60,329 nucleotides of DNA from Bdellovibrionales bacterium (lineage in GTDB: Bacteria; Bdellovibrionota; UBA1018; CAIMNF01). This document shows, in pieces, positions 8,501 to 46,179 of the stretch (positions are counted from its first letter, which is position 1; the number at the start of each line of letters is the position of its first letter). Under the pieces are notes generated by a model that was not told the DNA's origin, ran no database searches, and was given only the letters and a program-made list of their open reading frames with translations. The DNA lies in assembly GCA_040380025.1 (NCBI GenBank), contig JBEIJY010000012.1:1-60329 (forward strand), in the 5' to 3' direction. A program made the position numbers and the translations under genes.

Positions 8501-8575
8501 GAAGGCAAGCACGGCCAGCAACCCCAGGATCCCGATCGTCCTACGAAAAAAGTAGATTTTCTCGAACCCTTGCAT
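5522..8575 (-). CDS. Large secreted protein, paralogue 1, with C-terminal FGE/SUMF1-like domain
   Basis: Likely ATG at 8575 (MQGFEKIY, then signal peptide); RHLSLMESPFRGCIGGDCST block; C-terminal VTELQWRLVMG...NVSWHDV...YRLPT...AEW...GFRL. Confidence 0.8.
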   Translation of the reverse strand: MQGFEKIYFFRRTIGILGLLAVLAFPNGIAQARAADGDNPCDRLLSGGFDPLVPGSNPKQAEDLPALFARGFLPAPMAPEQLDLFEFYRILYLGDPTYLMPNALDREIMDAFLAHPNLRKEPFRNFELSMAKISYPVTDALHRFITAQKMAFGQSHARLFRIAENPKPWKEILQYRPGNDGDFAKFLEARIPAEFLKPLPLADFVTGKYRALKLFRFLQQQPETPARNQAIVDLVHSIGYHDPTARQALLDRDGMKRLEAYRKILAERERFLKSVGLLSGFRTFLVRMRIDQATGTHSEQQILETLAVLEDGILEGGSVEDFTQRTVRHLSLMESPFRGCIGGDCSTRLFPKIGLDPEFHFFTITDPNGSSSGQVSVVLGSGIGPGGNAVPVAFLDKIQGISVEDLAPMIEGVRRSVAEKGFRLALPSDLGVVPMAISNQGEVVAAIPHRIRVGETVIHSFEPRPNGYPFRDPRERDFSRAFLNLDCHEVLPMNESAAIKLRPGEVVQSWTLDEISSGEFMRTAVSLKHGNSGDQIKYVVLMMVMRQRGLTIDPDFDRILQDWMRDPAVDFKVRKQVLIEMWSNGEQSLPALLDYFNPAEQVTVIQNLLDTPRYFEQIETGDPRLIQQLLVRFRHRTAIVNALVGPYLADLPWNTGFETEVRGILPGLLQRREWADSELLDLLENLKWAVSSGTVDEFLPLLRTQWGAGVRADLFRLATSHFHHHWGTDDLQVERGLSELLFHEAAEAFELGVHLVRLNGIRERHAQAIAGTSLMKLYHQLLGTADDTQTGFLRELSAWIENPRIAVGEKSEFLISLIGVPGAGFLSWLKRIPAEQERAVLEYFSEKTALPVFRAIAKKRGVEEFLLEQGTRESFEFHRAIGAGGEFEVQSRTVTELQWRLVMGSGSAGARMPAFDLWSESKVLAGPRIVNVSWHDVQQFLTNLNAADPLFQYRLPTRVEQDLLIRYKAGVPVVEKIGRFRANDPSVSVAEWIQDADAGTRSASSWKLGFRLIRTRK

Positions 8576-8585
8576 AGACGCGCGG

Positions 8586-8594
8586 ATTATAACA
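8586..8594 (-). promoter_or_regulatory. Possible extended -10 promoter (TGnTATAAT) for paralogue 1
   Basis: Minus strand reads TGTTATAAT, ~10 nt upstream of the ATG at 8575. Confidence 0.45.
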
Positions 8595-8610
8595 CATTGA
8601 GTCAAAAAAC

Positions 8611-11600: not shown

Positions 11601-11673
11601 GCCCGGCAACCGACAAAAGCAGCGCGAGCATCACGGAAAATGACGAAATGGACACCAAAGAGCGTGTTTTCAT
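8611..11673 (-). CDS. Large secreted protein, paralogue 2, with C-terminal FGE/SUMF1-like domain
   Basis: Signal peptide, NFCSRLL, RHLSLLESPYRGCLGGDCST, same C-terminal motifs as paralogue 1. Confidence 0.85.
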   Translation of the reverse strand: MKTRSLVSISSFSVMLALLLSVAGPAISARAQSPEDGNFCSRLLQKVKNATRQWTAKGKLRSVQSPRTLDDLARLFTSGFLPDLAVEEQRQMFAIYRTLYFGDPLAPVSPKLDDELLGFLKANPDLQKEPFPDAELFMVRKRYPLTDPVREFVKSQKMAMGQVHARLFRIQENPKPWKEILGYHAATDGEFREFLGRSLPSRFLDPPFKDDLRSGRNRAEELFDFLWKLPKTPARNQLLVDLVHTVGYHDPALKRALGSEDGLERIRAYRKILDERDVFCSVMGIKNGFGGLMRDLTVAQATGTHSEAQIQSVLGALENELFLNAGIPEVSQRTIRHLSLLESPYRGCLGGDCSTRMYPILGLDPDFHYFTLTDQNGHSTGQVTVALGTGVGPDGGGIKVAFLDKIQGVTEEDLAPMIEGIRQSVASKGYVLALSRNLSEDQLKITNDEYFEYWIKKRIRVKDALIRSFRLRTAVTNFRKESELYSRAFKKFSCHEVLPLQESPFVTVRKGEAVEAWNAEEMSVEHLFKFMVELKNGSPSEQIKYIALGSQLRAGKIIDPDVERTLDSWLRDPAIDFRVRKQSFLALWIEQKRPLLELLDSFSLEQQVVLVQNILDTPRYLGLILEPVSNLPGLLVRFRKSSALVSPLTKLYLQGSTFRVRADDEIYPVLAGIPDHAGIDASRAEALLRQLRVPFRSQRSADFVAILNENWPFDVREDLFRIASSVLFWNWEGDPYLIERGLSDLLLQENPAAFELGQRILNRVAELTGRSVTANPGFPAVALYRRILNRTGGDQQKFLLALGAWLENPRVPAPERASFLLGLIGAPKARMSDWRARLAGDPAVAVGEHLAETTALPVFDAIAKEAGAEARFLENGSRESLAFFRVNGQAFQVQGRTVTELQWRLVMGEKAPGIGVPALDVLTGVRVACPRIAEVSWEEIREFLERLNAKDARYRYRLPTAEEQELLVRSGETLRLPERVGRFEAGNGAFLLSEWIENPGERWKNTRNWRLGFRLVRIPR

Positions 11674-11734
11674 GCGTGCGGGAACGCTAACGCATGGCGC
11701 AAAAAAAGAAAAGCTTGAATCCGGTCACGCGCAC

Positions 11735-12091
11735 TCAGCGCGGATCATCGTGCGTGTGCACCCGACAGCTCGCGCTCAGAACCACGAGGCAATTCGCCGT
11801 GAAGGGACCATCCTGATGAAAATACGTCGCCCCCTCGGGAACCCGGCAGTTGTAGCTGCAGCCGTGCACCCGGAAATCCGGATAAAACGGCCCCATCGGG
11901 CTCCGGGAGCAAGACCATTCATAATGGATCTGATCGACGATCTGCGGCCTCCCGGTGAAGTTCGGGGCCAGACACCCGAGCATCCCGCTCCCGGTGACAT
12001 GTCCGTACAGGACCGCCGCCGTGGCCGGAACCGAAGCGAGAAGAGAAGCAAAAAGCAAAACCCACGAACCCGAAATCCCCCGAAGATTCAT
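11735..12091 (-). CDS. Small Cys-rich secreted protein
   Basis: Signal peptide ending ...VPATA; 6 Cys in the ~90-aa mature part. Confidence 0.6.
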   Translation of the reverse strand: MNLRGISGSWVLLFASLLASVPATAAVLYGHVTGSGMLGCLAPNFTGRPQIVDQIHYEWSCSRSPMGPFYPDFRVHGCSYNCRVPEGATYFHQDGPFTANCLVVLSASCRVHTHDDPR

Positions 12092-12138
12092 CGAAAAGAA
12101 TGCTGTGCGAGGAATCGGGGATTTTCAAGCGAAAAGAT

Positions 12139-15054
12139 TTATTTCGGCTCGCGAATCAACCGGAATCCGAGGGTCGGGCCCTTCCTCACGCTCCGGCCAT
12201 GGGCCGGATCCTGAATCCACTCCGAGACCCCGCGCCCCAGATCCTGCCAGATTTTTTCGAACAGATTCACCCGAACCGGAAGCCCCCCCTCCCAAGCCTG
12301 GATTGCCTTCTGCTCGGCATCGGTCGGAATCCGATAGCGATAGTGTCCGTCTTGTTCGTTCAACCGGCGCAAGAATTCCGTGATCTCGTGGAACATGACC
12401 GTTTCGACCGGACTCCACGGAGCCACGATCTGGGACGGGTTTGATCCCATGATCAACAACCACTGCAGCTGGGAAACGGGGGCGCCCTGGACCTGCATTG
12501 CTCCCTGCGGAGCCGGCACGAACTGAAAACTGTCGAAGAAAGTTTCATCGAACAGGGGTTCGCGGAGCCCTTGTTCGGTCGCAATCCGCTCGAAAAGCCG
12601 AAGATTGCTCGTGCGGGCCATCGGTTCCCAGATCCGGGAACGCTCGGATTTCGGCAGGGCTTCGAAGGCCCGTGCGAAACTCCCCCGGCGCGTGCCCATG
12701 AGACTTGCCAAAAACCAGGCTTTGCGTTCGAGATCGATGTCGGAACGGCCCATCCAGAGCCTCAATTCCTGATGGAATCGCGAGAGCTCCTGCCATCCGG
12801 CACGGGCCAGGATTTCGCGATAAGTCTGCAACGGAATCGATGCCCGGAACCCCGTGAACGATTCGCTCTCCTCAGCAATTCCGGCCGCGAGCCGCCGGGT
12901 TGTGCGGTCGGAGGACTCGAACAGGATTGCGAGCGATTGAACGAGTTCGGACTCGCTCGTTGCCCGGAACAGATGAAACCGGGACAAGAACCGGAGCACC
13001 GCGGGCTCCACCGCCCTGCCCTCGAAACTCTCGAGCCCGGCCCGGAGATCGGCGAGCTGATTCGTCCAGACCGCGAGTCGCAGATGTTCGACACTTTCGA
13101 AGATTTGCGCCTTGCTCTGGAGCGGTTCCCGAAGAACAGCGGTGATCACTGCGATGATTTCATCAAAAAATCCCTCATGAGCCATCCCCCAGCGTGTTCC
13201 GAAATATTCGCCGATCAGTTCCCGCAAGACCGCCGGCTTGTCACGAGCTCGGATCATGAGGTCGGACAGGATCTGACTCTCGAGCTCGAGCCTGACCCTG
13301 AATCTCGGGGTATCGAGCAGGTTTTGAATCAGGACCACCTGCTCCGTTTCGCTGAAATGATCCAGCAGCCCCGGAAGATTCATTTCTTCTGCCTGCCAGC
13401 TGGTGAGGAGAATCTGTTTCCGGACCCGGAAATCGACCGAACGGTCCGAGATCCATTCCTTCAGGGTTGCCGCGAAATCCCGCACTGATTCCGGATTCCC
13501 GAGAAGCCCCGTGCGCTCGAGGGCGGACATCACCAGGACATACTGAATCCGCTCATCGATCGACCCTGCCTTCAAGCGCGGCAGGGAACCAAGCAGATGC
13601 TCATGAGCGACTTCCCGTTTCGATACGGCGGATTGCAAGGGTCCCGGCTCCAGCCGCGCGCCCGAAATCTCCTTCATCGGCAAAACTTCCCGAAGCGGCA
13701 ACTGATCGAACGCCCGCGAATACGAATCCCCCACCCTCAGTTCCGGTACGCCCCGCCCGGGCTTGAAGTTGCGAATCCACGCATCCTGCCGGACCGGCAC
13801 ATCGCTGCGAATCCACGAGATGATCTGCTCCCGGTTCGAGATCGCATTGTCCCCCTCCCCGAGGTCCACGGGAAGCGCGAGCGTGTAGCCATCCTCGGCC
13901 ACCGAGCGCCGGATCCCCTCGATCAGGAGCGGAAGATCTTCTCTCGAAACATTCTGGATTTTATCGACATACGCGATCGGCTTCCGGCCCGAAGACAAAA
14001 CCCCCTCCCCGAGGACCACGGTGACCTGGCCCGAGGAATGTCCCGTTTCGTCCGTGATGGTGAAGTAATGAAAACTCGGATCAAGCCCGTAAAGTGGATA
14101 ATTCTCGGTCGAGCAATCATCGCCGAGACAACCCCGGAAGGGCGATTCCACCAGCGACAAATGACGAATCATTCTTTGCCGGATCACCGGCGCGACCGCG
14201 TTTTCGATCAGTTCGGATTCGAGGGCTTGCAGGGTTTTCTCGAGCTCCGCCGTGGAGTGGACTCCGGTGGGCTGGATGACTCCCAGGGATTTCATAAATC
14301 CCTCGAAGGATTCCTTGATTCCCACCGCTCTCAGAAACTCCTCGCGTTTTGCGAGAATCGTACGATACGCCCGCAAGCGCACAAGGCCATCGGCGTGTTC
14401 CAATTCCGCCTTGATTGCGGGATCGCGATAGCCGCTCGTGTGAACCAGATCAACCGCCGCCTGCCGGGCGACTCTTGGGTTTCGACCTGCATTCGCCGCA
14501 TCCAGAAGCCAGAAAAAAAGCTCCTCGGGATGGGCCGGAACGGGACCCGTCACGGCCAGCTTTTTCCAGAGCCCGGCATCCGCGCCGCGCTCAAACAAAC
14601 GCGTCTGGACTTTTCCCATGGCCGTCTTTTGCGCATCGAGGAACCCCTTCAGCGCCGGCGAAACCGGATGAACCCGCTCTTCGGTGAACAAAAGGAAGTT
14701 CCGGAGCGGCTTCTTTTCGAGATCGCGATGCCGGTTCAATGCCCGGACGATTGCGCGGTATGACTCCACGGGAACGACCGCTTGGGGATTTCCGAAGCGA
14801 AGAATCCGATAGAGCTCGAAGATCGCCCGCTGATCGGGCTTCGTGAAGTCGGGGACGAACCCCGAGCGGAAGAGATCGAGAAGCTCGTCGATCGTGGCAG
14901 GGTGGATCGGCCCCCGGTCTTGCCGAAGCAAGCGATCGCAGGGATTTTCGGAGCCCGGTGCTTGCGCCTGCGCCGCAGGGGGCAGGGCCAGGAGGAACAA
15001 GGCAAAAGCCAAAACGAGGCCAGCCGAATTCCGCATGGATCGCGAAGCGCTCAT
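12139..15054 (-). CDS. Large secreted protein, paralogue 3, with C-terminal FGE/SUMF1-like domain
   Basis: Signal peptide, NPCDRLL, RHLSLVESPFRGCLGDDCST, VSQLQWLLIMGSNPS...YRIPTDAEQ...VSEW...GFRL. Confidence 0.85.
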   Translation of the reverse strand: MSASRSMRNSAGLVLAFALFLLALPPAAQAQAPGSENPCDRLLRQDRGPIHPATIDELLDLFRSGFVPDFTKPDQRAIFELYRILRFGNPQAVVPVESYRAIVRALNRHRDLEKKPLRNFLLFTEERVHPVSPALKGFLDAQKTAMGKVQTRLFERGADAGLWKKLAVTGPVPAHPEELFFWLLDAANAGRNPRVARQAAVDLVHTSGYRDPAIKAELEHADGLVRLRAYRTILAKREEFLRAVGIKESFEGFMKSLGVIQPTGVHSTAELEKTLQALESELIENAVAPVIRQRMIRHLSLVESPFRGCLGDDCSTENYPLYGLDPSFHYFTITDETGHSSGQVTVVLGEGVLSSGRKPIAYVDKIQNVSREDLPLLIEGIRRSVAEDGYTLALPVDLGEGDNAISNREQIISWIRSDVPVRQDAWIRNFKPGRGVPELRVGDSYSRAFDQLPLREVLPMKEISGARLEPGPLQSAVSKREVAHEHLLGSLPRLKAGSIDERIQYVLVMSALERTGLLGNPESVRDFAATLKEWISDRSVDFRVRKQILLTSWQAEEMNLPGLLDHFSETEQVVLIQNLLDTPRFRVRLELESQILSDLMIRARDKPAVLRELIGEYFGTRWGMAHEGFFDEIIAVITAVLREPLQSKAQIFESVEHLRLAVWTNQLADLRAGLESFEGRAVEPAVLRFLSRFHLFRATSESELVQSLAILFESSDRTTRRLAAGIAEESESFTGFRASIPLQTYREILARAGWQELSRFHQELRLWMGRSDIDLERKAWFLASLMGTRRGSFARAFEALPKSERSRIWEPMARTSNLRLFERIATEQGLREPLFDETFFDSFQFVPAPQGAMQVQGAPVSQLQWLLIMGSNPSQIVAPWSPVETVMFHEITEFLRRLNEQDGHYRYRIPTDAEQKAIQAWEGGLPVRVNLFEKIWQDLGRGVSEWIQDPAHGRSVRKGPTLGFRLIREPK

Positions 15055-21522: not shown

Positions 21523-23247
21523 ATGAAACTCGGACCTTTGCTTTCTGTTTTTCTCCTTCCCGTTTTCGCCCTCGCACGGCCAATCGCAAATTCGCATCCG
21601 GAATCCCGAAGTCACATCATGGTGCTCTCGGGCGGGGTCTCCTCGTTCCAGAATCACTACAGTCAGTACCTGCAAACCAAGCTCCTGGCCGAGCACATGC
21701 GAAGCCGGCTCACTCCCGAACAGGTCGATTTGTTTTTTGCGGCAGGGAACAACGAAACCACGAAGGAGCTGTTCCCGGACGTGCATCGGTACATCCAAAG
21801 CTCGGGACTCAGCCGGGTGGATCAGCTTCTGCCGGGAATCATTTCAGGAAATCGTCCGGCGACGCCAACGGTCGTGAAGGAGTACTTTGATACAGAACTT
21901 CCCGCCAAGATCGATCCGTCCGGGACGTTGTTTCTGCTGGTCACCGATCATGGCGCCCCGAACCCCCGTCTCATCGATGCTACCGATCCCTATGCGGACA
22001 ACTGCATCGATCTTTGGAGCGGAAAGGCGACGACCAGGGACAACAGCCTTTATGAGGATCTGCGGAATTGCTTTTCGGTGAAAAAGCTTGAGCAGGGCCT
22101 GAAAAAATCAAGCCCCGGACGGACGGTCTTCGCCATGACCCAGTGCCATTCCGGCGGGTTCCACCGTTTGTCGGTCAAGAAAGACGGAAGCTCCCGTTGG
22201 ACCGCGAATCCCGCGATTTGCGGATTCACCGCATCCGACGAGAACACGGTTGCCTCGGGGTGCACCTCGGATGTGAATGACGAAAACTATCGCGGCTATG
22301 AGCGTTTTTTTGCGGAGGCGCTCTCGGGAACGGATGTGATCACCCGAAAGCCCAAAGGCACCCCCGCGAAGAGCCTGCAAGAGGCCCATTATTCTGCCGC
22401 CGAAATCGACACCACCCTCGACATCCCGCTCTCCACGAGCGAGTACTTTCTCAGGAACTGGGCCGAGGACATCGCGAGCTCCGGCTTTGAGCCAAGGACC
22501 CGGGTCTTGAACCGGAGACAGGCGAAGAAGTTGCTGACTCAGGTGATGCGGAACAAAATCCCGCGCGAAGAGATTCTGAGCAAAGCGGGCCCGTTCGAGA
22601 GCTGGTTTGCGGCGCGCTTTGCACATCTGGACCGGATGGGAGAAAACCTCGCCGCGAGTTCCGGAACCGTGGGTTCCTTATGGAACCGTCCGCCCAAGGA
22701 GATCCGCGATGCGTTCAAAGGATTCCGGAAATCCAGCCTCGAGTTGGAAACGAAAAAAAACGAGATCGAAGAACAGTATGCGGCGCTGATCGACGAGGCC
22801 ATGAAACCGGATTACCTCAATTCCTTGATCCTCAAGGAAAAAGACCCTGAGTATCTGAAAGATCTCGAGAACCGCTACCATTCCTTCCTCGTGAAAGATC
22901 CGGACCTGTATCAAACCAGACTCTTCAGTCTGACCCGTGCGGGCAATCCGGATGCGGTGGTGCTTGCGGAACAAGAACAGAAATTTTTAGAGATCTTCGC
23001 TGCAAACGCGGCCCGTCTGCCCGGTGGAAAGTATGAAAATTTGCCGGAACAGCTGGATTTTTTGAAAGAAACCCATGATGCGCTCGAAGACCGGTACTCC
23101 GAACTCTCCCGCGTGCAACACATCCTGACCCGGATCATGATCCAACGCGGAGTCATCGCCGCGGCCCATGTGCTGATCCAAATGAAGGACGAGCAGGCGC
23201 TTGCGGATTTGCAGGGCTTGCTCGAGTGCGAGGCGACTCCGTTTTAG
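21523..23247 (+). CDS. Secreted clan CD (caspase/C13-like) peptidase with C-terminal coiled coil, paralogue A
   Basis: Signal peptide; LLVTDHG (His) and MTQCHSGGF (Cys) dyad motifs. Confidence 0.72.
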   Translation: MKLGPLLSVFLLPVFALARPIANSHPESRSHIMVLSGGVSSFQNHYSQYLQTKLLAEHMRSRLTPEQVDLFFAAGNNETTKELFPDVHRYIQSSGLSRVDQLLPGIISGNRPATPTVVKEYFDTELPAKIDPSGTLFLLVTDHGAPNPRLIDATDPYADNCIDLWSGKATTRDNSLYEDLRNCFSVKKLEQGLKKSSPGRTVFAMTQCHSGGFHRLSVKKDGSSRWTANPAICGFTASDENTVASGCTSDVNDENYRGYERFFAEALSGTDVITRKPKGTPAKSLQEAHYSAAEIDTTLDIPLSTSEYFLRNWAEDIASSGFEPRTRVLNRRQAKKLLTQVMRNKIPREEILSKAGPFESWFAARFAHLDRMGENLAASSGTVGSLWNRPPKEIRDAFKGFRKSSLELETKKNEIEEQYAALIDEAMKPDYLNSLILKEKDPEYLKDLENRYHSFLVKDPDLYQTRLFSLTRAGNPDAVVLAEQEQKFLEIFAANAARLPGGKYENLPEQLDFLKETHDALEDRYSELSRVQHILTRIMIQRGVIAAAHVLIQMKDEQALADLQGLLECEATPF

Positions 23248-23250
23248 TGC

Positions 23251-23451
23251 GAACTGTGCCCTTTGAGTGTGCTCCGTTTCAGTCCAGGATGGACAGTGGG
23301 GGTTGGAATCGCTCGATTTTTACCTCCATGCCGCATCCTGCGGCCTCGCTTTCGCGCATCACGCGCTCGCGAGAGTCGGCAAAAACCGAACGATTCCAAC
23401 CCCCTCTGTCCATCCTGCTCCTTCATTGAGTACAACCAAAGGGAGCAGTTG
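23251..23451. repeat. Hairpin element copy E3 (201 bp)
   Basis: GAACTGTGCCCTTTGAGTGTGC ... TACAACCAAAGGGAGCAGTTG termini; ~40-bp paired arms; conserved core. Confidence 0.92.
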
Positions 23452-23532
23452 ACATTAAACACAGCGGAAGGGGCGGTTCGCGGGTCGGCCAGTGAATTGT
23501 GTTTCGCCTGAGCTCGTGTTACGCTACGCGTT

Positions 23533-25218
23533 ATGAAGAATCTTGTCGTTTTTGCGGGCATTTTCCTTCCTGCATTGGTTTCATACGCCGCCCCCGAAGA
23601 TCGCGCCATCGTGCTCTCGGGCGGGCTTGATCCGTTTGAAAACCGCAATTCGCTGTATCTGCAAACCCAGATGATTCTCGAGACCCTGCATGGCCGCATG
23701 AGCCCCGGGCAGATCGATCTTTTTTTCGGTGCCGGAAACTCCCCATCCACCCGAAACCTGATCCCCGACGTTCATCGGTTCAGCACCCGTTCGCGGCTGG
23801 ATTTCGTCGATGAGCTGGTCCCGGGAATCCTGCCCGACAATCGCGCGGCGGACTCTCCGACTCTCGAGGAGTATTTTCATTCCGAACTTCCGAACAAAAT
23901 GAATCCGAAGGGAAATCTCTTTTTTCTCGTCTCGGATCATGGAATGCCGAATCCGTTCCTGCGCGAAAACGAGGCGTCCTACTCGAACAACTGCATCGTG
24001 CTCTGGAACGGGATGCCCGGTGCCGATGCCCAACCTCGAAATCCTTGCCTATCGGTGACCGACCTGAAATCCCGTCTGGAACTTGCGAATGCGAAGCGAA
24101 CGGTGTTCGCAATGACCCAGTGTTATTCGGGCGGATTCCACGGCATGTCGGTCCGCCGGGACGAAGAGAACCATTGGACTGCAAACCCGAAGGTCTGCGG
24201 ATTCACCGCGACCACCGAGGATGAAGTCTCGAATGGATGCTCGATGGAGGTCGACTCGCTCAAATACATCGGGTACGAGCGACGCATCACCGAGGCGCTC
24301 ACCGGGTTCGACATGGCAACCGGAGCCGCACTGGCACCGGCTGCGCGCTCTCTTTTGAGTGCCCACCGCAGAGCGGCCGAAATCGACACGAATTACGATA
24401 TCCCGCTCACCACGAGCGACGTGTTCCTCCGGAACTGGGCGCAGGACATCGAAACCCGCGGATTCAAGCCCAGAGCGGGCCGGGGGGCGAAAGCGCGCAG
24501 GGATTTCATCGAGGTGGCCGAAGGGAGAATCTCTCACGAAAAAATCCTGGCCTCGTCGAAATGGCTCAGGGCCTGGTTTGAAGCGAAATTCAATCACCTC
24601 GCGCGCATGGCGGCCACGGTCGGCGAGACCTCCGAGACGGTGAAGCGTCTTTGGGATCAGCCCCTCTCGCTCCTCAGGAAGTCCATCGATGAAATGAATT
24701 CCGAAATTGCTTCGAAACAAAAGGAACTTGCGACGATTCAGGAACAAATTGATGTTCTGAACCAGGGAACACTCCATCCGGCCTACTTGGATCATCTGAA
24801 TGCAAGAGCGCTTGAGCCGACGTTTTTACAGAATCCCGCGAACATGTACCACTACCAAATCGCGCTCACGCCCGATCTTTATCAGTCCCAGATGTACATC
24901 CTGAGCAAAGCGCAATCGCCGCTCGCCCTGATCCTGGCCGAGCAAATGCGCTCCTACGGCGAAGTTTCCCGAGACATCCTCCTCGGGTTGCGGAATGGAA
25001 CCTATCGCGACGAGGTTGGACTCCGGGATGAGTTGTACAAAAAAGAAGAGTCCGTTCAGGCTGATATTTGGGAACTCCAACGCGAACGAAACCTCCTGCG
25101 CCGGTTTCAGATCCAGCGCGAGGCACTCGCCGCAGCCCATGCGATCGTCCGAATGAACGACAAAAAAGCCCTCTCCGATTTGCAGGGCTTGCTCGAGTGC
25201 GAGGCGACTCCGTTTTAG
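23533..25218 (+). CDS. Secreted clan CD (caspase/C13-like) peptidase with C-terminal coiled coil, paralogue B
   Basis: FLVSDHG and MTQCYSGGF; collinear with paralogue A; same C-terminus DLQGLLECEATPF. Confidence 0.72.
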   Translation: MKNLVVFAGIFLPALVSYAAPEDRAIVLSGGLDPFENRNSLYLQTQMILETLHGRMSPGQIDLFFGAGNSPSTRNLIPDVHRFSTRSRLDFVDELVPGILPDNRAADSPTLEEYFHSELPNKMNPKGNLFFLVSDHGMPNPFLRENEASYSNNCIVLWNGMPGADAQPRNPCLSVTDLKSRLELANAKRTVFAMTQCYSGGFHGMSVRRDEENHWTANPKVCGFTATTEDEVSNGCSMEVDSLKYIGYERRITEALTGFDMATGAALAPAARSLLSAHRRAAEIDTNYDIPLTTSDVFLRNWAQDIETRGFKPRAGRGAKARRDFIEVAEGRISHEKILASSKWLRAWFEAKFNHLARMAATVGETSETVKRLWDQPLSLLRKSIDEMNSEIASKQKELATIQEQIDVLNQGTLHPAYLDHLNARALEPTFLQNPANMYHYQIALTPDLYQSQMYILSKAQSPLALILAEQMRSYGEVSRDILLGLRNGTYRDEVGLRDELYKKEESVQADIWELQRERNLLRRFQIQREALAAAHAIVRMNDKKALSDLQGLLECEATPF

Positions 25219-25262
25219 CGGGCACGACTATTGCTAATGACACCTCGGACAATGGAGGTGCC

Positions 25263-39969: not shown

Positions 39970-40664
39970 ACCCACCCTATCGGATCTTGTTCGAGGATCA
40001 GCATCTTGCGGTCCTCTCGAAAGACCCGGGGCTTCTCTCGCAAGGAGATGCCTCCGGTGATCCCTCACTGGTCGATCTTTTGCGGACCCGCTTCGGGCGA
40101 CAATATGTCGGGCTCGTGCATCGTCTTGATCGCAACACGAGCGGCCTCATGGTCGTCGCGAAACGCTCGAAAAGCGCGGAGCGACTCACGAACCAACTGC
40201 AATCGGGCGAGCTCGAACGTCGCTACCATGCGATTCTTTTCGGCTCATTTGAATCGAATGAGCCCCGACGCTGGGAACACCTGATGCTGAAGAACCTGAA
40301 CACGAATGAGGTCCGGATCGTGACCCGTCCGGTCCCGGGCGCGAAGATCGCAATTCTCGAGATGACTCCGGTTCTCGGGTTCCCGCATCCTTCGACGGGG
40401 GATCTCCTGACTCTTGCCCGATTCACGCTCGAGACCGGGCGATCCCATCAGATCCGCGCCCAGGCGCTGGCGATGAATCATCCCCTGATCGGCGATCAAA
40501 AGTACGGCACGCCGAAAAGCGCGGGCCTCTTCCACCGTCCCGCCCTGCATTCGTGTTTTCTTTCGTTCTCGCATCCGATGTCGAAGGAACGACTCGAGTT
40601 CTCGGAGAATCTCGCCCCCGACATGGAAGAGCTTCTGCCCGCATCCCGAAGGAGCCTTGATTGA
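39948..40664 (+). CDS. RluA-family pseudouridine synthase
   Basis: HRLDRNTSG, TGRSHQIR, GDQKYG. Confidence 0.92.
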   Translation: MAHSDPLNPPYRILFEDQHLAVLSKDPGLLSQGDASGDPSLVDLLRTRFGRQYVGLVHRLDRNTSGLMVVAKRSKSAERLTNQLQSGELERRYHAILFGSFESNEPRRWEHLMLKNLNTNEVRIVTRPVPGAKIAILEMTPVLGFPHPSTGDLLTLARFTLETGRSHQIRAQALAMNHPLIGDQKYGTPKSAGLFHRPALHSCFLSFSHPMSKERLEFSENLAPDMEELLPASRRSLD

Positions 40665-42994
40665 AAGTCGTCCGCCTTGAATTTCGCGACGAGCGCACCC
40701 CGTATTCGCCGCTCTTCGAAGATGTGTATTTTTCGCCCGTCTCGGGGATCGAAGAATCGAATGAAGTTTACATCGAAGGAAGCGGCTTCGCCGAGTCGCT
40801 CGCCTCGGGGAAACCCCGCATCACGGTTGCGGAGATCGGGTTCGGTGTCGGGCTCAATTTTGTTCTGACCGTGCGCCACTTCCAAACTGCCCTCTTTGAT
40901 TGTGCAGGGTTAGGGAGTGCGACCGGCAGAAGGGATTGGAAGGATTCGGCTTTTGCCTCCGAGCCGGATCGTCCGGCCTCGCTCTCGCCGTCCTGGCTCG
41001 CGAGAGTCGGCAAAAACCGAATCCTTCCAATCCCTTCTGCCGGTCCCGTGCCATTACCCTGCACAATCAAAGAGGGCAGTTTGGGAGCCTCCACGAACAG
41101 TCCGGTTCTTGAGTATATCTCGTTCGAAAAGCATCCGGTCCATCGGGACGATCTCGTGCGCCTCTATTCGGCCTACCCGGAACTCGCGCGTTCATCGAGC
41201 GCGCTCTTGCAAGCCTATCCTTTGCTGGTTCCCGGGGTGCATTCCATCCGGCTCTTTGACGGCCGGGTGCGTCTCACGCTTGTCTTGGGTGATGCGGCTG
41301 CGATGCTCGGAAAAATGCAATTCCAGGCTGATCACTGGTACTGGGACGGATTCGCCCCGAGCCGGAATCCGGACGCGTTCTCGGACGAGATCTTCACCGA
41401 GGTTGCGCGCCATTCCAAAAAGGAGGCGCGGGGATCGAGCTTCACTTCTGCGGGCTGGGTCCGGCGGGCGCTCGAGTCGGCCGGATTCCAGGTCACCAAG
41501 GTTCCAGGCTACGGAAGAAAACGCGAGCGCCTGACGGGGGTTTTCGCGGCCGCCCCACGAACCTCCCCCAAACTGCCCCATTTGATTGTGCAGGGTAATG
41601 AAACGGGATCGGCCGAGAGCGGCGAAATGATTCCGCTTTTACCCTCGGGTCGGGGCTCTAGGACTCGCGCTCACCAATCGGGGTCGCGAGAATCCGAAAA
41701 ATCCGAATCCCTCCCATCCCTTCTGCCGATCGCGCCCCCTAACTCTGCACAATCAAATGGGGCAGTTTGGAGTTTGCAGGGACTGAGCCCTCCCCCGTGG
41801 TTCTCGCAAAAAAATCATTCGCGCCTGTCGCCCGACCGGAACCGTGTCGCCATCATCGGCGCGGGCCTCGCCGGCTCCGCGGTCGCACGATCCCTTGCCG
41901 GACGGGGTGCGGTGGTGCGCGTGTTCGATGCACATGGAATCGCCACCCGTGCTTCGGGAAATCCCGCAGGGCTGTTCAACACGCAAATCTCAAAACTTCC
42001 GAATCCGATCAGCCGGTTCGCACAGGCGTCGCTTGCGCATTTCTTGCGCGAGCTGGACTCGCTTCGCGTTCCGGCACGGCGCGGAATCCTGAGAAAGGAC
42101 TTCTCCGACCCGGCGCCCCTGATTGCTTCGGAGTATCCGGAGGATTTCTACGAGCTCCGCGAAAATGGCACGTTTTTCGGACTCGCGGGAATGCTGAATC
42201 CGGCAGAACTATGCCGCGCGCGGCTTGATCACCCGGGAATCTCCCTGCAAGCCGATGCGGTGATCCGGGTCGAACGAGAAGGCGAAGAATTCTCGCTCCA
42301 TCATCCGTCGGGAGCAGTTTCTCGCGGGTTCCATCACGTCGTGTACACCATGGGCGCGGATCCGCGCCTTCCGGGAAGCGCCCCTCTTCTGCATCCCCTT
42401 CTGGACGCCCTTCCAACGCGTCCGATTCGCGGACAGATCTTGCTATTGCGGCCCACGCCCGAATCAGCGCGCCTCCCGCATTGCCTGGTCGAAGAGGGGT
42501 ATCTGACGCCGCTCGCACCGGAAATCACGAAGAATGAGTTTCACCTTTTGGGCGCAACCTATCAGGCAAAGACGATTCTTCCGGATCAGGAAGAGATCGA
42601 CACGGCCCGACTGCTCGAAGACGCCGGGAAGTGGCCTGAGATCGGGAAGTTCACGCGCGATCATGTGGTCTCGACGCGGACAGGCTACCGGATGTCGACC
42701 CCCGACAAGCTCCCTTTGATCGGCCCCGTGGTGGATCCGGCATGGCTCAGGGACGCGTACCAGAGGACTCTGCGGGGCGCTCGGCAGATCGCGGGTCCCG
42801 ATCTGGAGCCCGAGCCGGGCGAGTGGATGCTCACGGGTCTTGGATCGCGGGGAATCACCTACTCGTCGTACGGCGCGGAGATTCTGGCCTCGATGATGAC
42901 AGGAGAGATGCCGCCGATCGAGCTGGATCTCCTTGAGCATGTTCATTCGGCGCGGTTTTTCGTGCGAAAACTTCGCGATGTTACGATAAAGTGA
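40661..42994 (+). CDS. mnmC: Bifunctional tRNA mnm5s2U biosynthesis protein MnmC, carrying two in-frame hairpin-element insertions
   Basis: FEDVYFS, EIGFGVGLNF, SFEKHP, DGFAPSRNP, IIGAGLAG, ASGNPAG, GLGSRG. Confidence 0.9.
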   Translation: MKVVRLEFRDERTPYSPLFEDVYFSPVSGIEESNEVYIEGSGFAESLASGKPRITVAEIGFGVGLNFVLTVRHFQTALFDCAGLGSATGRRDWKDSAFASEPDRPASLSPSWLARVGKNRILPIPSAGPVPLPCTIKEGSLGASTNSPVLEYISFEKHPVHRDDLVRLYSAYPELARSSSALLQAYPLLVPGVHSIRLFDGRVRLTLVLGDAAAMLGKMQFQADHWYWDGFAPSRNPDAFSDEIFTEVARHSKKEARGSSFTSAGWVRRALESAGFQVTKVPGYGRKRERLTGVFAAAPRTSPKLPHLIVQGNETGSAESGEMIPLLPSGRGSRTRAHQSGSRESEKSESLPSLLPIAPPNSAQSNGAVWSLQGLSPPPWFSQKNHSRLSPDRNRVAIIGAGLAGSAVARSLAGRGAVVRVFDAHGIATRASGNPAGLFNTQISKLPNPISRFAQASLAHFLRELDSLRVPARRGILRKDFSDPAPLIASEYPEDFYELRENGTFFGLAGMLNPAELCRARLDHPGISLQADAVIRVEREGEEFSLHHPSGAVSRGFHHVVYTMGADPRLPGSAPLLHPLLDALPTRPIRGQILLLRPTPESARLPHCLVEEGYLTPLAPEITKNEFHLLGATYQAKTILPDQEEIDTARLLEDAGKWPEIGKFTRDHVVSTRTGYRMSTPDKLPLIGPVVDPAWLRDAYQRTLRGARQIAGPDLEPEPGEWMLTGLGSRGITYSSYGAEILASMMTGEMPPIELDLLEHVHSARFFVRKLRDVTIK
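40884..41082. repeat. Hairpin element copy E5 (199 bp), in frame in mnmC
   Basis: Perfect TIR AAACTGCCCTCTTTGATTGTGCAGGGT / ACCCTGCACAATCAAAGAGGGCAGTTT; 37-bp inner arms; intact core. Confidence 0.97.
41570..41768. repeat. Hairpin element copy E6 (199 bp), in frame in the mnmC interdomain linker
   Basis: Perfect TIR AAACTGCCCCATTTGATTGTGCAG / CTGCACAATCAAATGGGGCAGTTT; degenerate arms and core. Confidence 0.93.
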
Positions 42995-43812
42995 CACCCA
43001 TGCGATCGATCAGCGCCCTCCTCATCGTGAAAAATGAAGCCTGCTATATCGAGCGCGCTCTTTTGTCGCTCCTTTGGTGCGATGAGATCGTGGTGGTCGA
43101 TGCGTTCAGCACGGATGAAACGCCGGCCATTTGTGGCGACCCCGCGAAACCCTGGGCGAAGAAAATCCGATTCCTACAAAAAGAGTGGATGGGATTCTCG
43201 GCCCAGCGGAATTTCGCGATCAGCCAGGCACGAAGCCCATGGGTTTTCTTTCTGGACGGAGATGAGGCCTGCTCGCCGGAGCTCGCAGAGCGCATCCAGT
43301 CGCTCTTGAAGAGTCCCGATCTGACTCCCGGACAGTACAAAGTCCGGCGGCAGGAGTTTTTTCTGAAGAAACCGATTCATCATGGAATCTGGAATCCGTC
43401 CTATCATGTGCGTTTGTTTTATCGGGATCATCTGCGCTTCACCGGCGAAGTCCACGAGGGGGTCGAGTGCGCGGACGAAGTGAGAAGGATCGACGAGCCG
43501 ATCATTCATGTGGAGGATCTGAGAATTGAGCGGATCCTGAACAAGATGAACCACTATACGACGATCCAGGCGGAAGCGGATTACAAAAGCGGCCTCAGGA
43601 CGAATCTGCTCCGGATCCTGCTCTCATTCCCGGCAATGTTTTATAAGAACTATGTGTATTACGGGGCCTGGAGGGACGGGACCGAGGGAGTGATGATCTC
43701 GGTGTTGGAGGGGGTCTCGAGAACCGTGCGCCATCTCAAGATCTGGCAACTCTCCCAAACTGCCCGCTTTGATTGTGCAAAATTAGACTCCAGTAAAAAA
43801 AATTCTCTCTAA
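42991..43812 (+). CDS. Glycosyltransferase family 2; last ~18 codons come from element E7
   Basis: LIVKNE, VVVDAFSTDET, FLDGDE, GEVHE. Confidence 0.9.
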   Translation: MTPMRSISALLIVKNEACYIERALLSLLWCDEIVVVDAFSTDETPAICGDPAKPWAKKIRFLQKEWMGFSAQRNFAISQARSPWVFFLDGDEACSPELAERIQSLLKSPDLTPGQYKVRRQEFFLKKPIHHGIWNPSYHVRLFYRDHLRFTGEVHEGVECADEVRRIDEPIIHVEDLRIERILNKMNHYTTIQAEADYKSGLRTNLLRILLSFPAMFYKNYVYYGAWRDGTEGVMISVLEGVSRTVRHLKIWQLSQTARFDCAKLDSSKKNSL

Positions 43813-43944
43813 ATTGCAAAAGCTTGCATCAAGACATTCTTAGGCCCTGGGCACGGCGATTTTCATCTGTCACTCGGTTACAGCGAATCCTCCGGCATAT
43901 GAATCCTGTTTTCGAAAACCATGCACAACCAAACAGGGCAGTTT
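43757..43944. repeat. TIR-bounded element E7 (188 bp, no core), upstream of the transposase
   Basis: CTCCCAAACTGCCCGCTTTGATTGTGCA ... TGCACAACCAAACAGGGCAGTTTG. Confidence 0.88.
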
Positions 43945-43977
43945 GCAGTTGGCACAGTCTCTGCCTTCTCCCCCCGC

Positions 43978-44901
43978 ATGCGAATCCAGTGTCCGAATCC
44001 ATTGTGCCCTAAAATCCATCCCTGTGCCCATATCCCCCGTCGCCGTGGTCCGAAACCCAGACCGATCGTCCGAAAAGGAAGCTACTACCGTTTCTCGGAC
44101 CGCAGGTTCATCGATCGCTATCAATGCCGATGTTGCGGAAAGAATTTTTCGAGCGCCACCCGATCTCCCGATTACCGAAAAAAGAAGCGGCACCTGAATT
44201 CCGAGATCTTCAATCTCTATTGCTCGGGAGTGAGCCAAAGAAGGATGGCGCATTTGCTCGAAACCACCGAAAGGACCATCGTCGACAAGTTCCGTCTGCT
44301 CGCGAAGAGAGCCAGGCAAGAACACGAGGAATGGCTCAAGGGCATCGAGCCGAATTCCATCAGGAGTGTCCAATTCGATGACCTCGAAACCTTCGAACAC
44401 ACGAAGTGCAAACCCCTGAGCGTGACCCTCATGGTGAAGAGCCAAACCCGTGAGATTCTCGGATTCCAAGTTTCGCAAATGCCGGCAAAGGGACCACTCT
44501 CGAAGATTTCTCTTCGAAAATACGGTCCGAGAAAAGACAAGCGGCATGAGGGATGGAACCGATTCTTCAAAAATCTCGAGCGGATTCTTCACCCCGAGGT
44601 CCTGATTGAATCAGACGAGAATCCCCATTACCCAAAGCATGTGAAACGGTATCTGCCCGAAGCCAGGCATACGCGGTATCAGGGAGCACGGGGAGCGATC
44701 ACGGGTCAGGGAGAGCTGAAGAAGATCGGCTTTGATCCGCTGTTCGCCCTGAATCACACCTGTGCGATGTTGCGGGCAAACATGAACCGCCTTTTTCGCA
44801 GGACGTGGTGCACGACGAAGACAGTCGAAGGGCTTGTGGATCATCTCTCGCTCTATGTGCGGTACCACAACACGCTAATCCTCCCAAACTGCCCGTCTTG
44901 A
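43978..44901 (+). mobile_element. IS1-family-like transposase (Zn ribbon, HTH, RNase H-like DD[E->N] domain)
   Basis: CPNPLC...RYQCRCCGKNF; GVSQRRMAHLLETTERTI helix-turn-helix; QFDDLE, ESDENPHY, LNHTCAMLRANMNRLFRRTWCTTK (compare IS1 InsB [24 protein letters not shown]). Confidence 0.75.
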
Positions 44902-45071
44902 TTGTGCATGAATAGAGACTTCCCATTTTTTTTCGCATGAAATTCCCAACAATTAACCCATTTTTCTGATTCGCCCGGATCGGCTCTGGAATCGCTCCCT
45001 GATTTCGGGCCAAATCAACGGGCGAAACGCCAATTCCGCCTAAAACCATGCACAATCAAAACGGGCAGTTT
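44886..45071. repeat. TIR-bounded element E8 (186 bp, no core), downstream of the transposase and supplying its stop codon
   Basis: CTCCCAAACTGCCCGTCTTGATTGTGCATG ... CATGCACAATCAAAACGGGCAGTTT. Confidence 0.9.
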
Positions 45072-45180
45072 CCGATTGTTAAATTTTCTTGACATTTATA
45101 CCCCCCTCCCCCAAAACTTGCCCCATCACGCTTTTGGTCCACTGACGGCACCAAGATCGATCACGGAGGAAGAGAGACCC

Positions 45181-46179
45181 ATGAGAACCATTTTCATCGT
45201 CCTGGTGGTTCTGATTTTGATCGGGGGGGGAGTCTGGTTGCTTAGGCCCGCGCAGATGGGGCCGGGAGTGCAGGTTCCCGCAGCAAAAACAACGGCGGTG
45301 GAAGACTCCACAATCGTAGATGCTTCGCAGCCAAACCCGGGTGATGACAATCCCGTACAAAATCCGAACCTCCCTACTCCCACCGCCGAGAGCCAAGCAT
45401 CGAAGCCCCGCGTCGGCGTCTGCCACCCGCAAACTGCCTCAGATGATTGTGCACCATTAACGACCGGAATGACGCCAACACCTCGGAATCATTCTATTTC
45501 TAATGCAAAGCCCGGACGTTCGGAATTAGCCTCCCCATCCGGGCTCGCAAACGAGGACAAAACCCGAATCATTCCGGCTCTGTCTGTTCATGGTCTTCCT
45601 AAACCAGGAACAATCAAAGAAGGCAGTTTGTGCTGGGTACGCGAGTACCGCCACAAGGCAAACTCCCGCGCCCTTCCCATCGACGAGTTCCTCGAGCACC
45701 TGAACGCCTTCCCTCTCGAGCGCCCCGACATCCAGCCAAAGAGCATTTGTGTGAAGGTGGACGGCACTCCCGTCGACTTTGTGGTTTCGAGCCGGGGGCA
45801 AAAAAAAGAGATCGTCATCGGACCCGTGGTGGGACCAGAGAGCATCATCCGCGTCTCGTACTGCACCGGAAGCGCGCGGTGCGGAGAAGCCTGCGCGAAA
45901 CCCGCACGACGGTTCATGGATGAGCTGACCGGCGATGTTCTCACACCACCACACGGCCCGACAGGCCGTGCAGACTCACCTGCCCCGACAGGCCGTGCGG
46001 CCGCAAACAGCCCCAGAACCCCGGCTCTCTCCCACCACGAAGCCGACACGGCCGAGCTCCGCGCGGGCCTGAACGAGCTGAAGGCCCTCGCCCGAACCAA
46101 TGATTCCCTCACCGATCACGCAATTCTGCGGGATTGGAACACCCTCGTCGCGCGCGAGCGCACCTGCAAGGAGAACTGA
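45181..46179 (+). CDS. Membrane-anchored hypothetical protein at the head of the gliding-type operon, with in-frame element E9
   Basis: ATG at 45181 (MRTIFIVLVVLILIGGG TM anchor); Cys-containing C-terminal domain. Confidence 0.75.
   Translation: MRTIFIVLVVLILIGGGVWLLRPAQMGPGVQVPAAKTTAVEDSTIVDASQPNPGDDNPVQNPNLPTPTAESQASKPRVGVCHPQTASDDCAPLTTGMTPTPRNHSISNAKPGRSELASPSGLANEDKTRIIPALSVHGLPKPGTIKEGSLCWVREYRHKANSRALPIDEFLEHLNAFPLERPDIQPKSICVKVDGTPVDFVVSSRGQKKEIVIGPVVGPESIIRVSYCTGSARCGEACAKPARRFMDELTGDVLTPPHGPTGRADSPAPTGRAAANSPRTPALSHHEADTAELRAGLNELKALARTNDSLTDHAILRDWNTLVARERTCKEN
45431..45629. repeat. Hairpin element copy E9 (199 bp, degenerate), in frame
   Basis: AAACTGCCTCAGATGATTGTGC ... AACAATCAAAGAAGGCAGTTTG; translates QTA...TIKEGSL, like E5. 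Confidence 0.85.

What the first reader, a model, noticed from the sequence alone, without database searches (positions are those of the whole stretch)
40884..41768. Two independent in-frame insertions of the element inside mnmC
Seen: E5 adds ~67 aa (QTALFDC...TIKEGSL) between GLNFVLTVRHF and LEYISFEKHP in the methyltransferase domain. E6 adds ~67 aa (KLPHLIVQ...QSNGAVW), read in a different frame of the element, in the linker before the FAD oxidase domain. The ORF stays open (777 aa). Known: in-frame palindromic insertions in enzymes are described for Rickettsia RPEs. Inference: either tolerated peptide insertions in loops, or removal at the DNA or RNA level. E6 has decayed internally but keeps a perfect 24-bp TIR and the exact length, suggesting the ends are still functional.
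Basis: partly seen in the sequence, partly recalled or inferred. Interest (0 to 1): 0.8.

Follow-up and report, generated by a model that had tools for sequence, protein, structure and literature searches.

The report
Two mobile hairpins translated inside mnmC
Two copies of a small jumping-DNA hairpin sit in frame inside a tRNA-modification gene of an uncultured Bdellovibrio-like bacterium and are most likely read as floppy extra loops, a habit already known from Rickettsia and other bacteria.

Summary
The 777-aa mnmC ORF (40661-42994) carries two 201-nt copies of a dispersed hairpin repeat: E5 at 40883-41083 and E6 at 41569-41769. They lie in the same orientation but are read in different element frames. 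All 18 aligned orthologues lack both inserts, and none of the 119 other listed database homologues (532-736 aa) is as long.

The repeat is a true MITE. It has 107 loci in 2.35 Mb and 23-bp terminal inverted repeats. Eight of 31 end-bounded copies have 9-bp target duplications matching at 7 or more of 9 positions. Two IS1-like transposase genes are bracketed by units with the same ends, one just downstream of mnmC.

The gene looks functional. It keeps 63 of 63 invariant residues, its branch length is normal, both domains model confidently, and mnmE and mnmG are intact. The inserts fall in the loop after the SAM-motif helix and in the interdomain linker, and they model as disordered.

A third in-frame copy sits in a neighbouring gene. 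All three in-gene copies are exactly 201 nt and stop-free only, or nearly only, in the frame used. This argues for translation rather than excision.

No RNA or protein data exist. Earlier reports of this scan described in-frame MITEs in many other genomes. Verdict: a new member of a known kind.

The parts
40661..42994 (+). mnmC, the bifunctional tRNA mnm5(s2)U34 enzyme: N-terminal SAM methyltransferase MnmC2 and C-terminal FAD oxidoreductase MnmC1. 777 aa including two inserts.
   Evidence: ORF. Pfam PF05430 and PF01266 above cut-off. NCBIfam TIGR03197 at 235.5 bits (cut-off 174.2) and NF033855 at 191.6 bits (cut-off 136). PDB MnmC 3pvc at E 8e-70. AF2 model matches solved MnmC with TM 0.81-0.84.
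40883..41083 (+). E5: a 201-nt MITE copy read in element frame 0 as residues 75-141. It has a 28-bp perfect terminal stem and an intact family core (49 of 53 positions match the majority).
   Evidence: Absent from 18 of 18 orthologues.
41569..41769 (+). E6: a 201-nt MITE copy read in element frame +1 as residues 304-369 plus two split codons. It has a 25-bp perfect terminal repeat. Its interior and core are diverged (34 of 53 core positions match the majority).
   Evidence: Absent from 18 of 18 orthologues. A run X1 contig bridges it with 0 differences.
40874..40882 (+). The 9 nt left of E5, where a target duplication would lie. It matches the 9 nt right of E5 (41084-41092) at only 4 of 9 positions.
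41560..41568 (+). The 9 nt left of E6. It matches the 9 nt right of E6 (41770-41778) at only 3 of 9 positions.
43756..45072 (+). IS1-like insertion sequence. Its transposase gene (about 43978-44901, 307 aa) lies between two units bounded by the same terminal repeats (43756-43945 and 44885-45072). The transposase stop codon lies in the inner repeat of the right unit.
   Evidence: tblastn shows 64% identity to the C5 copy. ORF. End motifs. NCBIfam IS1 hit on the C5 paralogue (E 2.3e-9, below cut-off). Atlas neighbours are named IS1 family. Folds.
45430..45630 (+). Third in-frame copy, 201 nt and heavily diverged, read in element frame 0. It sits in the variable linker of a membrane-anchored hypothetical protein (ORF 45178-46179).
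   Evidence: Orthologue alignment shows the conserved C-terminal domain starts right after the element.
42991..43812 (+). Family-2 glycosyltransferase gene. Its last 19 codons and its stop codon come from the left unit of the IS.
   Evidence: ORF. Pfam PF00535 at E 2.6e-20. The end motif starts at 43756.

Best explanation
Two separate insertions of a roughly 201-nt hairpin MITE landed inside mnmC. The MITE is a non-autonomous element, most likely moved by an IS1-like transposase that makes 9-bp target duplications. Both insertions survived because 201 + 9 = 210 nt keeps the reading frame, the frame that fell into register has no stop codon, and both sites tolerate extra peptide. One site is the loop between the helix after the GxGxG SAM motif and the next strand of the methyltransferase domain. 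The other is the linker between the methyltransferase and FAD-oxidase domains. The inserts are transcribed and translated with the gene as roughly 67-residue disordered loops, and the enzyme still works. Both insertions are old: no target duplication is left, and E6 has lost most of the family's conserved core. An IS copy with the same ends lies 760 nt downstream of mnmC, and a third in-frame copy lies in the next gene but one, so local hopping probably seeded this cluster. Shown: the anatomy, absence from orthologues, family membership, target duplications in the family, and conservation of the host gene. Inferred: translation of the inserts, enzyme activity, the transposase-MITE link, and local hopping.
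For: Inserts absent elsewhere:
- All 16 same-genus genomes match the query in three pieces that skip residues 76-143 and about 300-375.
- 18 of 18 aligned orthologues have gaps at both sites. One further orthologue, L007, was dropped because a contig end truncates it.
- The six nearest database homologues (57-62% identity) also lack them.
- None of the 119 other listed homologues exceeds 736 aa.

Host gene intact:
- G000 keeps 63 of 63 columns that are invariant in the other 18, and 119 of 123 columns invariant in the other 15 same-genus rows. The leave-one-out range for the other same-genus rows is 0.952-1.0.
- Its end branch is 0.41, against 0.50-0.55 for sister paths from the same node.
- AF2 gives pLDDT above 90 over most of both domains. 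The only segments below 50 are 83-144 and 302-377.
- The model matches solved MnmC with TM 0.81-0.84.
- mnmG and mnmE are present above cut-off without stops.
- No second mnmC turned up in the genome; all other G000 matches are repeat-derived.

Sites:
- HMMER against 3pvc places insert 1 between chain residues 81 and 95, and insert 2 between 245 and 254.

Frame filter:
- The three in-gene copies are all exactly 201 nt. Only 8 of the 28 other end-bounded copies have a 3n length.
- The used frame has 0 stops in all three copies. Their other five frames carry 5, 11 and 16 stops.
- Random decay from the family majority leaves the used frame open with P of 0.13, 0.12 and 0.08.

MITE nature:
- 107 loci, of which 39 are full length and 31 lie at contig ends.
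- 9-nt flanks match at 7 or more of 9 positions in 8 of 31 copies, 4 of them perfectly. Shuffled pairing gives 0.39 expected.
- Transposase genes on C5 and in the window are each bracketed by units with the same ends.
Against: - No RNA run holds the locus and no proteome is available, so transcription, translation of the inserts and enzyme activity are all untested.
- The disorder call is weak evidence, because the alignment has no sequences covering the inserts.
- E5 as RNA is a -152.6 kcal/mol hairpin with a 28-bp perfect stem. That could hinder translation or attract a double-strand RNase, so expression may be reduced.
- No target duplication flanks E5 or E6, so the 210-nt arithmetic is inferred from other copies.
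- E6's ends are much better kept than its interior, which simple neutral decay of a translated fossil does not explain.
- The transposase match to IS1 is below the curated cut-off (37.5 bits against 100), and Pfam finds no IS1 domain.
- No closer relative than 62-63% identity exists in the databases searched, so the insertions cannot be dated and no empty site is seen within the species.
Confidence: 0.8

Rival explanations
1. The inserts have been co-opted. The peptide loops, or the mRNA hairpins with their 25-28-bp perfect terminal stems, now serve the cell. They might tune mnmC expression through cleavage by a double-strand RNase, or uncouple the two enzyme domains.
For: E6's terminal 25 bp are perfectly paired and each arm differs from the family consensus at one position only, while its core is 34/53 and its interior stem only 29 of 49 Watson-Crick. 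By model columns, E5 and E6 are the only 2 of 39 full copies with 25 of 25 terminal pairs. Both fold far better than shuffles. E6 sits exactly between two domains that are separate proteins in some bacteria (recalled; the stand-alone MNMC2 entry 3vyw appears).
Against: By ungapped comparison from the termini, 6 of 35 copies have perfect runs of 25 or more, so E5 and E6 are high but not unique. The variant bases in their ends are shared with other copies of the same sub-lineage, so no in-place compensation is shown. The third in-gene copy has decayed ends, 18 of 25. No orthologue has anything comparable. No promoter- or terminator-like site is tied to the elements.
Confidence: 0.1
2. mnmC is a recently disabled gene. 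The ORF is still open only because too little time has passed.
For: Insert 1 interrupts the methyltransferase fold 10 residues after the SAM-binding glycine motif. No expression data exist. The full-length NCBIfam equivalog score of 453.8 is under its 540 cut-off.
Against: The insertions are old: target duplications are gone, and E6 differs from the family majority at 53 of 201 positions. Yet the 643 host codons show no stop or frameshift, a normal branch length and full retention of invariant residues. The domain-level NCBIfam models pass their cut-offs. The sub-threshold full-length score follows from the match being split by the inserts.
Confidence: 0.07
3. The inserts are removed before or after translation, by precise DNA excision in part of the population, RNA processing with re-ligation, ribosomal bypass, or protein splicing.
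For: The perfect terminal stems bring the two insert ends together in a folded RNA.
Against: Removal would lift the need for 3n length and a stop-free frame, yet all three in-gene copies meet both. There are no matching take-off and landing codons or direct repeats at the borders. Rfam gives only a sub-threshold chance hit over E5, 27.7 bits against a gathering score of 73. There is no Hint or intein domain, and the inserts begin with Q and K, not the Cys/Ser/Thr that inteins need (recalled rule). Contigs of run X1 carry E6 intact, and no empty-site contig was seen in 4 runs.
Confidence: 0.03

Closest known systems
Rickettsia palindromic elements (RPEs; Ogata et al. 2000, 2002, seen here only as summarised in passages of the review PMC10969869)
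   Same: Both are small palindromic mobile repeats found many times in a genome. Copies sit in frame inside unrelated housekeeping genes and are read as extra peptide at positions compatible with the fold.
   Different: The taxon differs (a Bdellovibrio-like MAG) and no sequence relation was tested. This element is about 201 nt rather than about 150. It has clear terminal inverted repeats, 9-bp target duplications and a candidate transposase. Most copies here are intergenic: only 3 clear in-frame, both-sides-coding cases were found among the 59 loci of 150 nt or more that were examined. Its low stop content is explained by dinucleotide make-up, not by a conserved peptide.
Bacterial MITEs with intragenic copies (ERIC, QMITE1 of Coxiella, Anabaena MITEs; passages of PMC10969869; listing of PMC5896051)
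   Same: TIR-bounded, non-autonomous, hairpin-forming elements with target duplications, occasionally fused in frame to host ORFs.
   Different: This is a new family, with a strongly conserved 53-nt core and variable stems. Two copies sit in one enzyme and are read in two different frames.
IS1 family insertion sequences
   Same: The transposase has an N-terminal zinc-ribbon-like CxxC pairs region and a weak match to the IS1 transposase model. Language-model neighbours are named IS1 family. The 9-bp target duplication is the size I recall for IS1.
   Different: The score is far below the curated cut-off, and no Pfam DDE_Tnp_IS1 hit was found. It is a single 307-aa ORF. Each IS end is a 190-200-nt unit bounded by both repeats, not a simple repeat.
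Earlier reports of this scan on in-frame palindromic MITEs in other genomes (e1-995674 leuS, e1-1101334 murD, e1-3006482 IS1380-type MITE)
   Same: The same phenomenon: hairpin MITEs translated as loops inside housekeeping genes.
   Different: Those are different element families and hosts. They are unchecked AI notes, not evidence.

Membership tests
MITE (miniature inverted-repeat transposable element) | Terminal inverted repeats | tested here: met
   A 23-nt end motif occurs 105 times with up to 3 mismatches, forming 35 inward-facing pairs. E5 has 28 bp perfect and E6 25 bp perfect.
MITE (miniature inverted-repeat transposable element) | Target-site duplication of fixed length | tested here: met
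   For the family, 9-nt flanks match at 7 or more of 9 positions in 8 of 31 copies (4 perfect), against 0.39 expected. For E5 and E6 themselves this is not met: 4/9 and 3/9.
MITE (miniature inverted-repeat transposable element) | Small, multi-copy, no transposase gene of its own | tested here: met
   107 loci in 2.35 Mb, full length 198-206 nt. The frames encode no recognisable protein.
MITE (miniature inverted-repeat transposable element) | A cognate autonomous element sharing the ends | tested here: inconclusive
   Two transposase genes (C5 100088-101011; window 43978-44901) are each bracketed by units with the same end motifs. No target duplication surrounds these composite units, and mobilisation is untested.
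MITE (miniature inverted-repeat transposable element) | Presence/absence polymorphism (evidence of movement) | tested here: inconclusive
   Orthologous mnmC sites in other species are empty. No within-species empty site was seen in 4 runs.
Rickettsia palindromic elements | Sequence membership in one of the described RPE families | not tested
   No RPE sequence was available from a tool. Only the way of working was compared.
IS1 family transposase | Match to curated IS1 transposase models | tested here: inconclusive
   NF033558 gives E 2.3e-9 and 37.5 bits against a cut-off of 100. Pfam finds no PF03400 hit at E 0.01. Atlas nearest clusters are named IS1 family at 0.98-0.99.
IS1 family transposase | 8-9-bp target duplication | tested here: met
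   9 bp. The family value is recalled, not taken from a call.
MnmC (bifunctional MnmC2/MnmC1) | SAM methyltransferase domain plus FAD oxidoreductase domain in one chain | tested here: met
   PF05430 at 118.6 bits and PF01266 at 100.5 bits. NF033855 and TIGR03197 are above cut-off. The fold matches 3ps9, 3awi and 3pvc.
MnmC (bifunctional MnmC2/MnmC1) | Conserved cofactor motifs (GxGxG for SAM, DGF.P, GxGxxG for FAD) | tested here: met
   G60, G62, G64, D229, G230, F231, P233, G400, G402 and G405 are among the invariant columns kept by G000.
MnmC (bifunctional MnmC2/MnmC1) | Enzyme activity on cmnm5s2U/nm5s2U tRNA | not testable with these tools
   Needs a complementation or nucleoside assay.
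Intein / self-splicing intron | Hint domain or catalytic RNA fold | tested here: not met
   No Hint-type Pfam hit on the 777-aa protein. Rfam gives only a chance miRNA hit at 27.7 bits against a gathering score of 73.

The most novel reading that the evidence does not exclude
The terminal 25-28-bp stems of both mnmC copies are being kept perfectly paired in place while the rest of E6 decays. The cause could be a DNA process that copies one arm onto the other (template switching in quasi-palindromes) or selection for a hairpin in the mnmC mRNA that controls its processing or translation. If so, the inserts are not inert fossils but an acquired control device inside a tRNA-modification gene.
Probability: 0.12. 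Interest if true: 0.55.

Novelty: new member of a known kind. Interest (0 to 1): 0.3.

Why it matters
This adds a free-living, Bdellovibrio-like lineage and an IS1-like-associated element to the short list of bacteria in which mobile hairpins are carried in frame inside housekeeping genes. It gives a natural map of two positions where MnmC tolerates about 67 extra residues: the loop after the SAM-motif helix and the interdomain linker. That is useful for tagging or engineering the enzyme. It also shows coding regions acting as a museum for old MITE copies. Only length-neutral, stop-free changes are allowed there, which lets one compare how the ends, stem and core of the element decay once it is trapped.

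Tried and rejected
- Expression: no RNA holder is listed for the locus, so expression could not be examined.
- Empty sites: laying contigs of 4 DNA runs showed no empty site. X1 bridges E6 with 0 differences but breaks inside E5. The two 'joints' at 41014/41025 to 41747 have short sides (23-29 nt) and come from other repeat copies. X2-X4 cover only fragments.
- 'Pre-adapted to be translated' was rejected. The family has 45 of 216 open frames (the three in-gene copies left out), against 15.3 for mononucleotide shuffles but 50.8 for a first-order Markov resample. Dinucleotide make-up therefore explains the paucity of stops.
- 'Copies are born as perfect palindromes at each transposition' was rejected. 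The four copies with intact 9/9 duplications have only 33-38 of 49 interior Watson-Crick pairs.
- 'In-place compensatory changes in the E5 and E6 ends' is not shown. The variant end bases also occur in other copies, and E6 shares 17 derived states with the copy at C20 38083.
- A transposase gene between simple long-range repeat pairs was sought; no pair 260-3000 nt apart appeared in the end-motif list. Only the composite arrangement was found.
- A scan of species-representative genomes for the exact end motif gave 4 single hits in unrelated bacteria, taken as chance. Records of the window's own genome may be left out of that scan.
- Pfam gave nothing for the C5 transposase or for the 45178-46176 protein.
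- Literature: 'Bdellovibrio' + 'miniature inverted-repeat' returned one unrelated preprint. A search for IS1-family target-duplication data gave no usable statement, so that value is recalled.
It was replaced by counts on real copies.
Full report
**What is there.** The window is contig C12 of a 2.35-Mb, 53-contig assembly. Earlier notes of this scan ascribe it to an uncultured Bdellovibrio-like bacterium. Source names of homologues ('Bdellovibrionales bac...') and the taxa of the transposase's nearest Atlas clusters agree with that.

The + strand ORF 40661..42994 is open for 777 codons. It is a bifunctional MnmC:
- Pfam Methyltransf_30 (residues 174-294) and DAO (395-744) are above cut-off.
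- NCBIfam domain models NF033855 and TIGR03197 are above cut-off.
- The best solved relative is Yersinia MnmC 3pvc, E 8e-70.

Upstream lie a class-IV aminotransferase and an RluA-type pseudouridine synthase gene. Downstream lies a family-2 glycosyltransferase gene.

**The two inserts.** The repeat finder pairs 40882-41084 with 41568-41770 (203 nt, 74% identity) and shows each to be a long inverted repeat. An iterated nhmmer profile and an end-motif scan fix the element borders at CAAACTG...CAGTTTG. This gives E5 = 40883-41083 and E6 = 41569-41769, each 201 nt and both in + orientation.

E5 begins at codon position 1 and is read as Q75-L141. E6 begins at codon position 3 and is read as K304-V369 plus two split codons. 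The two copies therefore use different element frames. As RNA, both fold far better than shuffles: E5 at -152.6 kcal/mol (z -18.1) and E6 at -100.9 kcal/mol (z -8.8).

**Orthologues lack them.** A six-frame search of 40 relatives found mnmC in all 16 same-genus genomes. Each match came as three pieces that skip query residues 76-143 and about 300-375.

I aligned 18 full-length orthologues: 15 from the same genus, one from the same family and two from the same order. L007 was dropped because contig ends cut the gene. All 18 have gaps at both places.

A search of 5.8 billion clustered proteins listed 119 other homologues of 532-736 aa. The nearest, at 57-62% identity and 645-679 aa, also lack both inserts. 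Three same-genus genomes that do carry the repeat's core (G002, G010, G013) likewise have insert-free mnmC.

**What the element is.** The family has 107 loci in the genome. Of these, 39 are full length and 31 lie at contig ends, so the true number is probably higher.

Full copies are 198-206 nt. They consist of 23-25-nt terminal inverted repeats, a variable stem and a 53-nt core that is the best-conserved part. Core identity to the majority is 0.79-1.00 in 35 of 39 copies. The four exceptions are E6, the 45430 copy, C20 38083 and a deleted copy on C6.

Nine-nucleotide flanks match at 7 or more of 9 positions in 8 of 31 end-bounded copies, four of them perfectly. Only 0.39 such matches are expected when flanks are paired at random. 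The element is therefore a MITE that makes 9-bp target duplications.

A 307-aa ORF on contig C5 matches the IS1 transposase model weakly (E 2.3e-9, 37.5 bits, below the 100-bit cut-off). It is bracketed by two full MITE copies. A 64%-identical paralogue lies in this window at 43978-44901, between two 188-190-nt units with the same end motifs. In both copies the transposase stop codon lies in the inner repeat of the downstream unit.

Related transposase genes are multi-copy in 14 of 40 relatives. Calling this an IS1-family element is a lead, not a demonstrated membership, because Pfam sees no IS1 domain.

**Is the gene alive?**
- G000 keeps 63 of 63 columns that are invariant in the other 18 orthologues. 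These include the SAM and FAD glycine motifs and the DGF.P motif.
- It keeps 119 of 123 columns invariant in the other 15 same-genus rows. The leave-one-out range for the other same-genus rows is 0.952-1.0.
- In a maximum-likelihood tree built without the insert columns, its end branch is 0.41. The paths to its three sister sequences from the same node are 0.50-0.55, so there is no speed-up.
- AlphaFold2 on the orthologue alignment gives mean pLDDT 80.1, with 471 residues at 90 or above. The only segments below 50 are 83-144 and 302-377, that is, the inserts.
- The model's best structural matches are solved MnmC entries (TM 0.81-0.84 by target length).
- mnmG and mnmE, which make MnmC's substrate, are intact.
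- No second mnmC was found.

**Where the inserts sit.** Insert 1 follows helix 65-82, which comes after the G60-x-G62-x-G64 loop, and precedes strand 149-156. In 3pvc the equivalent gap is chain residues 82-94, a loop whose length varies among orthologues. Insert 2 lies between chain residues 245 and 254, the link between the two domains. Relatives already vary in length there.

The low confidence of the insert models is only weak evidence for disorder, because the alignment is empty at those columns.

**Translated or removed?** A third copy (45430-45630) sits in frame in the variable linker of a membrane-anchored protein. Its conserved C-terminal domain starts right after the element.

All three in-gene copies are exactly 201 nt, while only 8 of the 28 other end-bounded copies have a length divisible by three. 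In all three the used frame has no stop, while the other five frames hold 5, 11 and 16 stops. Starting from the family majority, which itself has one stop in each of the two used frames, random change at the observed divergence leaves the used frame open in 13%, 12% and 8% of trials.

Such filtering makes sense only if ribosomes read through the inserts. Excision at the DNA, RNA or protein level would remove the constraint. In addition:
- There is no direct repeat or codon match at the borders.
- There is no Rfam family beyond a chance hit.
- There is no intein domain.
- There is no empty-site contig in four runs.

No RNA run holds the locus, so none of this is direct evidence.

**Age and origin.** E5 and E6 have no recognisable target duplication (4/9 and 3/9). 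E5 differs from the family majority at 30 of 201 positions, E6 at 53 and the third copy at 74. E6 and the third copy have largely lost the conserved core, at 34/53 and 31/53.

E5 and E6 share 14 derived states, and E6 shares 17 with a copy on C20, so they belong to one sub-lineage. Three family copies and an IS with the same ends lie within 4.8 kb (40883-45630). The genome average is one locus per 22 kb, which suggests local hopping. This is an inference.

**What stays unexplained.** E6's terminal 25 bp are perfectly paired and nearly consensus, while its interior stem is 29 of 49 Watson-Crick and its core is diverged. By model columns, E5 and E6 are the only 2 of 39 full copies with 25 of 25 terminal pairs. 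By ungapped comparison, 6 of 35 copies reach runs of 25 or more, so they are high but not unique.

Perfect ends do not mark recent insertion, since the four copies with intact duplications have runs of only 6-18. Arm-onto-arm copying by template switching in quasi-palindromes (recalled mechanism) or selection on an mRNA hairpin could account for this. Neither was tested.

**Comparison with what is known.** In-frame fusion of MITEs with host ORFs is described for Rickettsia RPEs, ERIC, QMITE1 and Anabaena MITEs (passages of the review PMC10969869). This case works the same way. I did not test sequence membership in RPE families.

The element's low stop content follows from its dinucleotide make-up. 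It is therefore not visibly built for translation: about a fifth of frames are open, and about 3 in 10 copies have a 3n length.

I found no paper on MITEs of Bdellovibrio-like bacteria (one unrelated preprint). This scan has earlier notes on the same repeat family in this genome and about 97 notes on in-frame mobile inserts in other genomes.

**Verdict.** This is a new member of a known kind and of modest interest. Its added points are the 9-bp duplications and the IS1-like partner, two insertions in one enzyme read in two frames, and a natural map of two permissive sites in MnmC.

Noticed in passing
window 43756-45072: An IS1-like insertion sequence. A 307-aa transposase gene lies between two 188-190-nt units, each bounded by the MITE's terminal repeats. 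Only the terminal ~25 bp of these units pair; their interiors are not palindromic. The transposase stop codon lies in the inner repeat of the right unit. The same layout occurs on contig C5 99901-101245, there with true hairpin MITE copies.
   Followed up: partly
window 42991-43812: The family-2 glycosyltransferase gene takes its last 19 codons and its stop from the left unit of the IS, read in the same element frame as E5 (QTARFDCA...).
   Followed up: partly
window 45430-45630 (ORF 45178-46179): A third 201-nt copy, heavily diverged, is in frame in the low-complexity linker of a membrane-anchored protein with a conserved Cys-containing C-terminal domain and no Pfam family. It is syntenic with mnmC in G002 and G010.
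   Followed up: yes
G000 contigs C7 20908-21110, C25 18120-18320, C26 15342-15544, C39 16139-16341: Four MITE copies have perfect 9-bp target duplications and are presumably the youngest insertions. Their stems are only 33-38 of 49 Watson-Crick. The two most perfect palindromes (C20 974-1174, C20 34821-35019) have no duplication left.
   Followed up: partly
G000, 31 of 107 repeat loci: Nearly a third of the repeat loci lie at contig ends, so this MITE is a main cause of assembly breaks and its copy number is underestimated.
   Followed up: no
window 5500-15000: Three paralogous units spaced 3074 and 3498 nt apart (direct repeat families D1, D5, D11, D13, D16, D19, D20). Probably a tandem gene triplication.
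   Followed up: no
window 22100-25230: A pair of paralogous segments 1971-1977 nt apart at 75-82% identity (D9, D12, D18).
   Followed up: no
G002, G010, G013 (same genus): Only the roughly 90-nt core of the element (query positions about 54-148) is conserved in these genomes, at 77-86% identity with 16-21 matches each. The stems and ends differ between species.
   Followed up: partly
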